A stretch of 59,659 bases of DNA, the filler included, from Pirum gemmata (Eukaryota), in NCBI GenBank assembly GCA_002812295.1. It is 10 parts of 10 records of this genome, joined end to end, with 100 filler letters (N's around TTAATTAATTAA, not from the genome) between each part and the next. Parts side by side here need not be neighbours in the genome. Positions count along the whole stretch, not along the records: positions 13,859 to 19,503 come from PDIN01000505.1; 9 more parts are not named here. One strand, written 5' to 3'. The notes beneath the pieces are model-generated. The model did no database searches. It was given only the letters and a program-made list of their open reading frames with translations, and was not told the DNA's origin. Position numbers and translations under genes: made by a program. The first letter of the stretch is position 1, and each line of letters starts with the position of its first letter. Shown here piece by piece: positions 17,240 to 18,685 of the stretch.

Positions 17240-18685
17240 ATGATTTCATTAATATTAATTGAGATTAGTACTGTTTCCCTTTGTTCAGCTTTACTCATCT
17301 TAAATGTAGCTGGCCATGGTACGTTAAAGACGCCCCATGGCAGTCAAGCACGAAACGGACCGATAAAGACCGAGCAATGTAATGATATTGCTCCAAACAT
17401 GAAAGATAATTATGGTAACTACCCTAATGGTAAAATGGATGATTTAGCCAGAGATTTTAAAGCTTCAAAATACAAAGGTGATTTAAGAAAACTTTTTCGA
17501 GCGAAAAATTTAGATAAAGGTCAAATACAACAAAGAACCAATAACAAAATACAAAATGCACCCACCTATGTTAAATGGCAAAACAATAACGCTGACAACT
17601 TTATTGTGGATCATTTAGGTCCTTGTGCAATATATACCGTCCACGAAGATGAAGAAAAAGCTGACTTGGTATTCTCAAATGATAATTGTGTAAAAGATTA
17701 TCGTAGAAAAAATATAGAAACTCCAGACTTGCCTTCGTTGTGTAGTTCTTCAGGGTGTATGATGGAGTTTTATTGGTTAGTAACAGGGGTTAATAGTGGT
17801 ATTCGAAAGGGCCAAGCCCAGTATTACTACGCAGCCGTTAAACTAAAAGGAACAGCTGATGCCAATTACGGGAAAAAAGTAATCCCAACTCCTACAACTC
17901 CTACAACCGCTAAAACAGCTTCAAGGGCTAATAGTAATATTAACGCTAACTCAAATATTTATATGCTTCCGTATAATATACCACAACAAAACCCCTCCCC
18001 AAATCAGCAACAACTATTAAACCAACCATATCAACAACAATACCAACAACAAATATTAAACCAACAACCATACCAACAACCATTACAATACCAATACCAA
18101 CAACAATACCAACAGCCATACCATCAACAACAATACCAGCAACAACAATACCAGCAACAACAATACCAGCAACAACTATTAAACCAAAAACCATCGTACC
18201 AACAACCATATCAACAATTACAATTACAAACACAATCCCAACAAAACGCACAACAGTTTCAATTACCAATAGGTCAAGTTACACCTACATATTATCCTGC
18301 CTTACCTCCAACTACGAATTATGGAATGCCCATGGCTAGTGGTACAAACCTAGCAACAAACAAACAAACAAAAACACAAGTGGCGAGCCCTTCATTAGAG
18401 ACTATTCCAGCTACGTTTTTCAGTTCCTGTGATAATAATGATAATGACGGTGGGAATAACAAGAAACAATTAGGGATTGGCTCTTACACATTTCAACAAC
18501 TCAATTCCTATATGACAAACATCGCACAGATTTCGGTTTCACCTAGTTTTACTGTTACTTTGTATAATCAAGATAATTTCAAAGGGAATTCAATAACATT
18601 AGTTGGTGGAATCAATCATAGTTCCGATTGCTATGCAAATATGTTTGCTGATGGATTGAGATCGATTGTAATCAATCCGAGCTAG
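17240..18685 (+). CDS. Secreted AA17-like LPMO domain + Q-rich linker + betagamma-crystallin-like domain, 481 aa
   Basis: Signal peptide ending VAG exposes His as residue 1 (HGTLKTP); internal motifs WQN..DHLGPC, VFSNDNC, CSSSGCMMEFYWL and QYY; C-terminal ATFF..LGIGSYT..ISVSPSFTVTLYNQDNFKG..DGLRSIVI Greek-key pattern. Confidence 0.7.
   Translation: MISLILIEISTVSLCSALLILNVAGHGTLKTPHGSQARNGPIKTEQCNDIAPNMKDNYGNYPNGKMDDLARDFKASKYKGDLRKLFRAKNLDKGQIQQRTNNKIQNAPTYVKWQNNNADNFIVDHLGPCAIYTVHEDEEKADLVFSNDNCVKDYRRKNIETPDLPSLCSSSGCMMEFYWLVTGVNSGIRKGQAQYYYAAVKLKGTADANYGKKVIPTPTTPTTAKTASRANSNINANSNIYMLPYNIPQQNPSPNQQQLLNQPYQQQYQQQILNQQPYQQPLQYQYQQQYQQPYHQQQYQQQQYQQQQYQQQLLNQKPSYQQPYQQLQLQTQSQQNAQQFQLPIGQVTPTYYPALPPTTNYGMPMASGTNLATNKQTKTQVASPSLETIPATFFSSCDNNDNDGGNNKKQLGIGSYTFQQLNSYMTNIAQISVSPSFTVTLYNQDNFKGNSITLVGGINHSSDCYANMFADGLRSIVINPS

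What the first reader, a model, noticed from the sequence alone, without database searches (positions are those of the whole stretch)
17315..17855. AA17-like lytic polysaccharide monooxygenase domain in a genome that does not look oomycete
Seen: predicted cleavage after VAG leaves His1 (HGTLKTP), followed by FKASKY..L, WQN...HLGPC, VF.NDNC, C...C...FYWL and QYY. Known (from recall): this motif order matches oomycete AA17 pectin-active copper LPMOs (HGY..P, SHxGPC, FYWLALH, WQVYKxC). The two brace His and the QxY Tyr appear kept; the LALH His and the terminal Cys are replaced. Inference: a divergent AA17 relative, possibly with a different substrate, acquired horizontally or showing a wider ancestral distribution.
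Basis: partly seen in the sequence, partly recalled or inferred. Interest (0 to 1): 0.8.

Follow-up and report, generated by a model that had tools for sequence, protein, structure and literature searches.

The report
Oomycete-type copper enzyme in animal relative
A single-celled organism that is most likely a close relative of animals carries a small family of predicted secreted copper enzymes whose nearest known kin are the pectin-cutting enzymes of water moulds; they were likely gained by an old gene transfer and likely cut sugar polymers outside the cell.

Summary
Confirmed and extended. The domain is the front of an intact 481-codon ORF (17240-18685): signal-like leader, His1 domain, Gln-rich linker, beta/gamma-crystallin-like tail. 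It is AA17-related by sequence and fold. A profile without oomycete rows hits only the three solved AA17 structures, and the model matches PsAA17B at Z 16.1, rmsd 2.5 over 158 residues, next family 7.9. His1, His100, Gln169 and Tyr171 are kept. The host is most likely an ichthyosporean: the window's ammonium transporter has 0 mismatches to a protein labelled Pirum gemmata. Six more Pirum-labelled paralogs and one environmental protein form, with this one, a long-branch group outside three oomycete subfamilies. All 8 lack one cysteine pair. The missing LALH histidine says little, since the characterised AA17s carry Gln there. Likely a secreted copper LPMO gained by old transfer from the oomycete lineage. 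Copper binding, activity, substrate, expression and transfer direction are untested. Reviews list AA17 as oomycete-only; my searches found no report in ichthyosporeans, but the founding paper was unreadable.

The parts
17240..18685 (+). Whole ORF, 481 aa, no intron needed: secreted modular AA17-related protein
   Evidence: The collection's own record of it (P0007) is identical for 476 aa and lacks the last 5. Unitigs of run X1 cover 17251-18154 and 18147-18689 with 0 other letters (X1 may be the source of this DNA, and no single record bridges the Gln repeat).
17240..17314 (+). Predicted signal peptide, 25 aa, ending V-A-G before His1
   Evidence: Best 9-residue hydropathy 2.58; -3/-1 residues VAG, VIS, VSG, VMS, VEA, VIS in the 6 closest members. 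No SignalP run; the leader has no basic residue.
17315..17863 (+). AA17-related LPMO-fold domain, mature residues 1-183 (structured to about 178)
17315..17317 (+). His1, predicted first copper ligand
   Evidence: His in 8 of 8 Pirum-group rows and 27 of 29 oomycete-type rows, the other 2 being N-terminally cut; model residue 1 is the first residue aligned to 8S71 (chain residue 24).
17612..17614 (+). His100 of H-x-GPC, predicted second copper ligand; preceded by group-specific Asp99
   Evidence: Invariant in 37 of 37 rows; aligns to the His of IVHAGPC in 6Z5Y, 8S6S, 8S71. Asp99 in 7 of 8 Pirum-group rows against Ser/Thr in 29 of 29 others.
17819..17827 (+). Gln169-x-Tyr171, predicted second-sphere Gln and axial Tyr
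   Evidence: Both invariant in 37 of 37 rows; register fixed by paralog P0009, which reads QYYKNG where oomycete rows read QVYKNC. Roles inferred from other LPMOs.
17378..17380 (+). Cys22, a group-specific and apparently unpaired fifth cysteine
   Evidence: Cys in 6 of 8 Pirum-group rows, not among the common residues of the 29 others; domain Cys count 5 in those six against 6 in 22 of 34 oomycete-type rows. Pairing not measured.
17876..18394 (+). Low-complexity linker, Pro/Thr then Gln/Tyr/Pro-rich (173 aa, 53 Gln)
   Evidence: Disordered tails are common behind LPMO domains, AA17 included (PMC8615602, passages).
18401..18682 (+). Beta/gamma-crystallin-like C-terminal domain
   Evidence: Myxococcus Protein S E 4.5e-5, clostrillin E 0.01; Atlas top clusters 0.90, Crystall on about 30% of members, recognition below threshold; 42% identical to the tail of paralog P0006. 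No Pfam hit at E<=1.
9088..10692 (-). Ammonium transporter gene used as host marker (not part of the enzyme)
   Evidence: Pfam PF00909; 0 mismatches over 504 aa to Pgem_evm1s13819, one 24-aa gap.

Best explanation
This gene, in what is most likely a Pirum-type ichthyosporean, encodes an AA17-related protein that is predicted to be secreted, to bind one copper at a His1/His100 brace and likely to cut an extracellular polysaccharide by oxidation, and it was likely gained by an old transfer from the oomycete lineage and then multiplied. Steps: shown - ORF, motifs, AA17 kinship by sequence and predicted fold, paralog family, modular tail. Inferred - cleavage before His1 (0.9); copper brace with Tyr171 axial and Gln169 in the second sphere (0.85); reduction then H2O2/O2-driven glycosidic cleavage as in other LPMOs (0.65); transfer from oomycetes or an unsampled relative (0.75); substrate an acidic, uronate-rich polymer met outside the cell, such as algal or gut-content glycan, opened for osmotrophic feeding (0.35, the weakest step). 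The linker and crystallin-like tail would tether the enzyme to substrate or cell surface.
For: Sequence. Fold from a 5-row alignment without oomycete-labelled rows: AA17 Z 13.1-13.6, rmsd 3.0-3.3, 155-157 aligned, other LPMO families <=6.9; deeper model pLDDT 89.3, N-terminus 91, Z 16.1 against 7.9, Foldseek TM 0.62-0.66. Brace and QxY residues invariant. The long helix said to be unique to AA17 (PMC10195143, passage) has a match at model residues 41-49. Host; AT-rich intron-bearing context; GC3 0.28 in the domain against 0.24-0.32 in four other window genes; run X1 also holds DNA coding a stretch found only in paralog P0003. Distribution: of 49 hits in 1.84 billion representatives, 6 are Pirum-group and 43 oomycete-type; of 18 of those 43 looked up, 8 carry an organism name and all 8 are oomycetes. 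Precedent: the Abeoforma+Pirum clade received 21 transfers from Labyrinthulea, and transferred families are enriched in carbohydrate metabolism (PMC13345962, section 10). Net charge +2 to +7 in the six closest domains against a median of -5 in 34 oomycete-type rows fits a polyanion.
Against: No copper, activity or substrate data. The fold tool returns no coordinates, so brace geometry was not measured, and the second model leaned on 29 oomycete-type rows. Identity to solved AA17s is only 22-23%. The second-sphere position is Gly here, not His or Gln; second-sphere changes generally reduced performance in an AA10 (PMC11137697, abstract and passages). Trees are unrooted, the stem is about 3 changes per column, and the group lies outside all three oomycete subfamilies with the base unresolved (72/34), so no donor is shown; with all 8 rows support is 91/99, unstarred, with a long-branch warning. 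PiAA17C-type sequences were not in the trees. Charge is weak evidence: PsAA17B has a negative patch and still cuts pectin (PMC11992081, passage), and P0008/P0009 are -1 and -3. The Amt marker is joined to the gene only across scaffold gaps.
Confidence: 0.6

Rival explanations
1. Active LPMO, but working on the organism's own cell wall, for example loosening it at spore release.
For: AA17s of animal-associated Saprolegniales are proposed to remodel their own wall (PMC8393829, passage). Ichthyosporean coenocytes are walled (PMC11286789, PMC4739763, passages). The tail resembles Protein S and spherulin 3a (their spore-coat and cyst roles are recalled). A Gln/Tyr-rich linker could embed in a wall.
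Against: No member from another named ichthyosporean appeared, though all are walled; varied tails (PAN, Cys-rich, crystallin-like) suggest several targets. I found no wall chemistry for Pirum in the passages read.
Confidence: 0.25
2. A copper-binding, non-lytic LPMO-like protein: copper handling as proposed for X325/Bim1, or an H2O2-making oxidase as reported for some AA16 proteins.
For: Group-specific Asp99 beside His100 and Cys22 could add a ligand; in X325 an Asp fills the fourth site (PMC10952591, passage). Second-sphere His/Gln replaced by Gly in 7 of 8. AA16 precedent seen only as a search listing (PMC10088020).
Against: Fold is AA17 (Z 16.1), not X325 (6.1) or AA16 (6.1); Gln169 and Tyr171 are kept; Asp99 sits where oomycete rows have Ser, so it need not reach the metal; fused PAN-type modules point to a polymer target.
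Confidence: 0.2
3. AA17 is older and wider than thought: vertical inheritance with many losses, or transfer from a third unsampled lineage, or from ichthyosporeans to oomycetes.
For: The group branches outside the three sampled oomycete subfamilies. An ichthyosporean-to-oomycete transfer is proposed for the nitrate cluster (PMC11286789, passage). P0005 is of unknown origin.
Against: Named hits span Saprolegniales, Albuginales, Pythiales and Peronosporales but only one non-oomycete label; vertical descent needs losses in nearly all other eukaryotes.
Confidence: 0.2
4. Contamination or chimeric scaffold: the gene belongs to a stramenopile in the culture.
For: Scaffold has many N gaps; Pirum and Abeoforma datasets are reported as cross-contaminated (PMC13345962 supplement row; PMC9492541 passage, which gives the opposite direction).
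Against: The reported contaminant is another ichthyosporean. Codon use correlates 0.75-0.84 with four window genes; the same gap-free piece (14463-19503) holds a poly-Gln ORF ending at a GTAAG donor-like site; unitig depth over the gene (420-584) is of the same order as over Amt (300-755) (weak evidence).
Confidence: 0.04

Closest known systems
CAZy AA17 LPMOs: PiAA17C (6Z5Y), PsAA17A (8S6S), PsAA17B (8S71)
   Same: Signal then His1; H-x-GPC; NDxC; CxxxGC..FYW; QxY; long helix; same fold (Z 13-16); low-complexity tail; no His in the FYWLALx position; an insertion between FYW and QxY.
   Different: 22-23% identity; host not an oomycete; one Cys pair lost, Cys22 gained; Gly where they have Gln; longer loop before His100 and 4-6 extra residues after the CxxY strand; crystallin-like tail; activity untested (theirs: C4 oxidation of demethylated pectin, PMC11992081).
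Uncharacterised oomycete AA17-type subfamilies (Saprolegnia, Achlya, Albugo, Aphanomyces, Pythium, Phytophthora hits)
   Same: WQN...F..H.GPC loop; invariant brace and QxY; PAN tails in some members of both groups.
   Different: 20-30% identity; they keep LH and YxxC in 36 of 43; more acidic (median -5).
AA9, AA10, AA11, AA13, AA15, AA16 LPMOs and X325
   Same: Ig-like LPMO fold with N-terminal His aligned; Gln-x-Tyr motif as in AA9.
   Different: Z 5.6-7.9, identity 7-17%; no Pfam AA9 or LPMO_10 hit.
Microbial beta/gamma-crystallins (Protein S, clostrillin, spherulin 3a)
   Same: Tail domain sequence pattern.
   Different: Fused behind an LPMO-type domain; calcium or glycan binding not tested.

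Membership tests
AA17 LPMO | Signal peptide cleaved directly before His1 | tested here: inconclusive
   Hydrophobic leader and small -3/-1 residues, same register in 8 of 8 group members; no SignalP or N-terminal sequencing.
AA17 LPMO | His1 and second His of the brace present in sequence | tested here: met
AA17 LPMO | Brace geometry and copper binding | not testable with these tools
   No coordinates returned, no Cu ligand offered; only pLDDT 91 at the N-terminus and residue-1 alignment to 8S71.
AA17 LPMO | Gln-x-Tyr with axial Tyr | tested here: met
   Q169, Y171 invariant in 37 of 37.
AA17 LPMO | AA17 fold, closer to AA17 than to any other LPMO family | tested here: met
   (model without oomycete-labelled rows).
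AA17 LPMO | Best sequence relatives among characterised proteins are AA17 | tested here: met
   3 of 3 PDB hits of profile A2 are AA17 (identity of entries from PMC11992081).
AA17 LPMO | CAZy/dbCAN AA17 profile passes its cut-off | not testable with these tools
   No dbCAN library. A review quotes a 30% similarity threshold for AA families; identity to oomycete-type rows is 20-30%, so borderline.
AA17 LPMO | Six-cysteine pattern including CG...YxxC | tested here: not met
   Both Cys of that pair absent in 8 of 8 group members. Typical of AA17 rather than formally defining; the reason I file this as a variant, not a plain member.
AA17 LPMO | Oxidative C4 cleavage of demethylated pectin | not testable with these tools
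   Needs assay.
AA17 LPMO | Oomycete host (as listed in reviews) | tested here: not met
   reviews list Oomycetes only (PMC10195143 table; PMC10952591 table).
X325/Bim1 copper protein | Asp as fourth copper ligand, X325 fold | tested here: inconclusive
   Z 6.1 to LaX325 against 16.1 to AA17; position of Asp99 relative to the metal not measured.
Beta/gamma-crystallin (tail) | Double Greek-key fold and family sequence pattern | tested here: inconclusive
   Sequence hits E 4.5e-5 to 0.03, Atlas 0.90, no Pfam hit; not folded.

The most novel reading that the evidence does not exclude
The Pirum group is a separate LPMO subfamily, the first AA17-type enzymes on the animal side of the eukaryote tree, with a rebuilt copper second sphere (Gly for His/Gln, Asp99, a free Cys22, one disulfide lost) that oxidises a marine acidic glycan such as alginate, ulvan or invertebrate mucus, for which (recalled) no LPMO has been shown.
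Probability: 0.2. Interest if true: 0.85.

Novelty: new variant of a known kind. Interest (0 to 1): 0.58.

Why it matters
AA17 is described as an oomycete family whose three characterised members cut plant pectin. A seven-gene branch in a marine, walled, osmotrophic relative of animals breaks that range, gives the first candidate outgroup for rooting AA17, and offers natural variants of the copper second sphere in an organism with no known plant host. It makes two questions testable: what AA17-type enzymes cut when pectin is not the obvious target, and how ichthyosporeans digest or remodel polysaccharides. Surprise is tempered because stramenopile-to-Pirum transfers are a published pattern.

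Tried and rejected
No whole genome held, so paralogs and pectin-degrading partners could not be counted. Pfam gave nothing for the domain. No RNA holder listed: no evidence either way on expression. Pattern scans found no relative in metagenome contigs (the second failing even for P0005 itself, so sensitivity is low), viral contigs or prokaryote genomes; tblastn of phages gave no match; BFVD had 0 matches at E<=0.001. A giant-virus vector was considered for the unnamed P0031/P0035/P0044 subgroup and found no support. No second copy in the window. Atlas first hit 0.88 to an unnamed Oomycota cluster is a lead only. Trees left out 10 of 52 extracted domains as fragments or broken ends (P0011b, P0022, P0024, P0027, P0030, P0032, P0033, P0037, P0043, P0051); the second tree also left out P0008 and P0009; no outgroup rooting or AU test was run. 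Literature: AA17+LPMO+oomycete 28 papers, ichthyosporea+LPMO 2 (listings only, on AA15 and peroxygenases), AA17+LPMO 55 with 40 listed, AA17+ichthyospor 1 unrelated 2015 paper, AA17+dbCAN+protist 0, two-of-six taxon search 81 with 40 listed, none listed holding AA17. The founding AA17 paper is not held. In PMC13345962 the main text has no LPMO or AA17 and term searches of its table file showed no LPMO-annotated transfer; unannotated clusters and the unreadable main supplement could still hold this family. Earlier scan notes had nothing by sequence or words.

Full report
Observation. The stretch is the front part of an uninterrupted ORF, ATG 17240 to stop 18685, 481 aa. A 25-residue hydrophobic leader ending V-A-G precedes His26 at 17315. 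Behind the 183-residue domain come a 173-residue low-complexity linker with 53 Gln and a tail of about 94 residues. The collection holds this protein as P0007, identical for 476 residues. Unitigs of run X1 match the ORF without a differing letter in two pieces that meet in the Gln repeat; X1 may be the source of the window, so this is a check of assembly, not independent support.

Kinship by sequence. Pfam has nothing for the domain. phmmer against the PDB gave 4 hits at E<=10, the top three being 8S71, 8S6S and 6Z5Y, which are PsAA17B, PsAA17A and the P. infestans AA17 (PMC11992081, passages). A profile of the domain and its four nearest relatives, with no oomycete-labelled row, hit only these three, E 2.6e-7 to 1.7e-5. 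Against 1.84 billion representatives the same profile gave 49 hits at E<=0.001: the window's own record, P0002, P0004 and P0005 at E<1e-86, two further Pirum-labelled paralogs P0008 and P0009, and 43 proteins with the oomycete AA17 pattern. I looked up 18 of those 43; 8 carry an organism name, all oomycetes (Phytophthora twice, Pythium twice, Albugo, Saprolegnia, Achlya, Aphanomyces); 10 have none and 25 were not looked up. In reverse, an HMM of 34 oomycete-type domains scored the window domain 63.7 bits against at most 7.1 for 1000 shuffles.

Kinship by fold. The second model, from 37 rows of which 29 are oomycete-type, reached pLDDT 89.3 with the N-terminus at 91. Among 48,161 chains only 8S71 passed Z 8: Z 16.1, rmsd 2.5, 158 aligned, starting at model residue 1; AA9 and AA10 followed at 7.9 or less, AA16 and X325 at 6.1. 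A helix at 41-49 answers to the long helix that a review calls unique to AA17 (PMC10195143, passage). No coordinates were returned, so the brace geometry was not measured.

Active-site residues. His100, Gly102, Pro103, Cys104, Cys125, Cys143, Trp154, Gln169 and Tyr171 are invariant in 37 of 37 rows; His1 is missing only in 2 cut records. Differences of the Pirum group: both the upstream CG cysteine and the terminal YxxC cysteine are absent in 8 of 8, which suggests loss of one disulfide (inferred); six members have a new Cys22 and so an odd count of five; Asp99 replaces Ser/Thr in 7 of 8; the LH histidine is kept only by P0009 and is Gly elsewhere, with an insertion before QxY. The six closest domains are net positive, +2 to +7, against a median of -5 in 34 oomycete-type rows; PsAA17B, with a negative patch, still cuts pectin, so charge is a weak guide.

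Tail. It is 42% identical to the tail of paralog P0006, so the architecture is shared, and resembles Protein S (E 4.5e-5), clostrillin and spherulin 3a, with Atlas leads to Crystall/I36 clusters. Other members carry PAN or Cys-rich tails.

Host. The window is 19-36% GC, with an intron-split QCR6 gene. Its ammonium transporter has 0 mismatches over 504 residues to Pgem_evm1s13819 of the proteome labelled Pirum gemmata; the next hit is another Pgem protein at 52%, then about 40% for records that are bacterial where named. The Pirum and Abeoforma proteomes are reported as cross-contaminated, with the two papers naming opposite directions (PMC13345962 supplement row; PMC9492541 passage); either way the host is an ichthyosporean. 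The LPMO gene is tied to Amt only through scaffold gaps, but its GC3 (0.28) and codon use (r 0.75-0.84) fit the other genes, unitig depths are of the same order, its nearest relatives carry the same Pirum label, and run X1 also holds DNA for a stretch found only in P0003. So P0002, P0003, P0004, P0006, P0008 and P0009 are most likely paralogs in the same organism, seven genes with this one. P0005, 49-52% identical, from an unnamed 1-kb environmental contig, shows that the group exists in a second organism. An earlier scan note on another piece of this genome also read the host as a single-celled relative of animals (unchecked).

Origin. In a 42-row tree the 8 group members are one side of a branch at 91/99, with a long-branch warning. 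Without P0008 and P0009 the six form a 100/100 branch outside three oomycete-type subfamilies (93/90, 97/91, 97/97), order unresolved at 72/34. The trees are unrooted and lack PiAA17C-type rows, so they neither show nesting nor name a donor. Distribution carries the argument: many oomycete orders, one ichthyosporean lineage, no named member elsewhere. The Abeoforma+Pirum clade is a known sink for stramenopile genes, 21 from Labyrinthulea, and Pseudofungi gave 11 to Teretosporea (PMC13345962, section 10); the reverse direction also has a precedent (PMC11286789, passage). I put transfer from the oomycete lineage, or an unsampled relative, at about 0.75.

Mechanism. Most likely the protein is secreted, cleaved to expose His1, loads one copper between His1 and His100 with Tyr171 below and Gln169 beside, and after reduction uses H2O2 or O2 to break a glycosidic bond, as established for LPMOs. 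The substrate is open. I commit to an acidic polysaccharide met outside the cell, used for osmotrophic feeding, because the characterised relatives cut a polyuronate, the domains are basic, tails vary and the family is confined to one lineage. Own-wall remodelling (proposed for Saprolegniales AA17s, PMC8393829, passage) and a non-lytic copper role (X325 precedent, PMC10952591, passage) are real rivals.

Novelty. Two reviews list AA17 for oomycetes only. The searches named under Tried and rejected found no report of AA17 in ichthyosporeans. The founding paper and its supplement could not be read, nor the main supplement of PMC13345962; either could mention these genes, and automatic annotation databases were not checked. 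Papers were seen as passages or single sections as stated, none in full. Verdict: a real, divergent AA17-type branch in a unicellular relative of animals; new variant of a known kind; interest 0.58.

Noticed in passing
window 44357-46129 (-) and 50013-51818 (+): Two single-exon VWA + thrombospondin-repeat membrane proteins (Pfam) whose short cytoplasmic tails hold NPLF followed by a second N-A/N-P stretch, like integrin-beta or Dictyostelium Sib tails (resemblance recalled).
   Followed up: partly
window 1594-2727 (-): 377-codon ORF with repeats of a 'GQT...QNG(I/L/V)(W/Y)' type, recalled from bacterial and phage fibre proteins; no Pfam hit.
   Followed up: no
window 9088-10692 (-): Single-exon ammonium transporter whose best hits after two Pirum-labelled proteins are Amt-PII fusions, bacterial where named, at about 40% (only the 7998 best candidates scored); possibly another transferred gene. 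Run X1 shows a second allele or copy with 16 listed differences.
   Followed up: partly
window 25827-31214 (-): LINE-like element: endonuclease plus reverse transcriptase ORF and an upstream 756-codon ORF.
   Followed up: no
window about 21050-22410 (-): QCR6 (UCR_hinge) split into an acidic first exon, a 55-codon middle exon and a short last exon.
   Followed up: partly
window 19455-19503 (+): TTAGGG-type tract just after a GTAAG donor-like site and before an N gap; may be simple intronic repeat rather than telomere.
   Followed up: no
proteins P0031, P0035, P0044, P0050: A supported subgroup (98/95) of AA17-type proteins from unnamed contigs, nested among oomycete-type rows; host unknown; no viral or prokaryote locus found. 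P0050 is fused to a GH7-like domain.
   Followed up: partly
protein P0005: Environmental member of the Pirum group with a PAN_4 tail; could come from an uncultured ichthyosporean; its contig was not recovered.
   Followed up: partly
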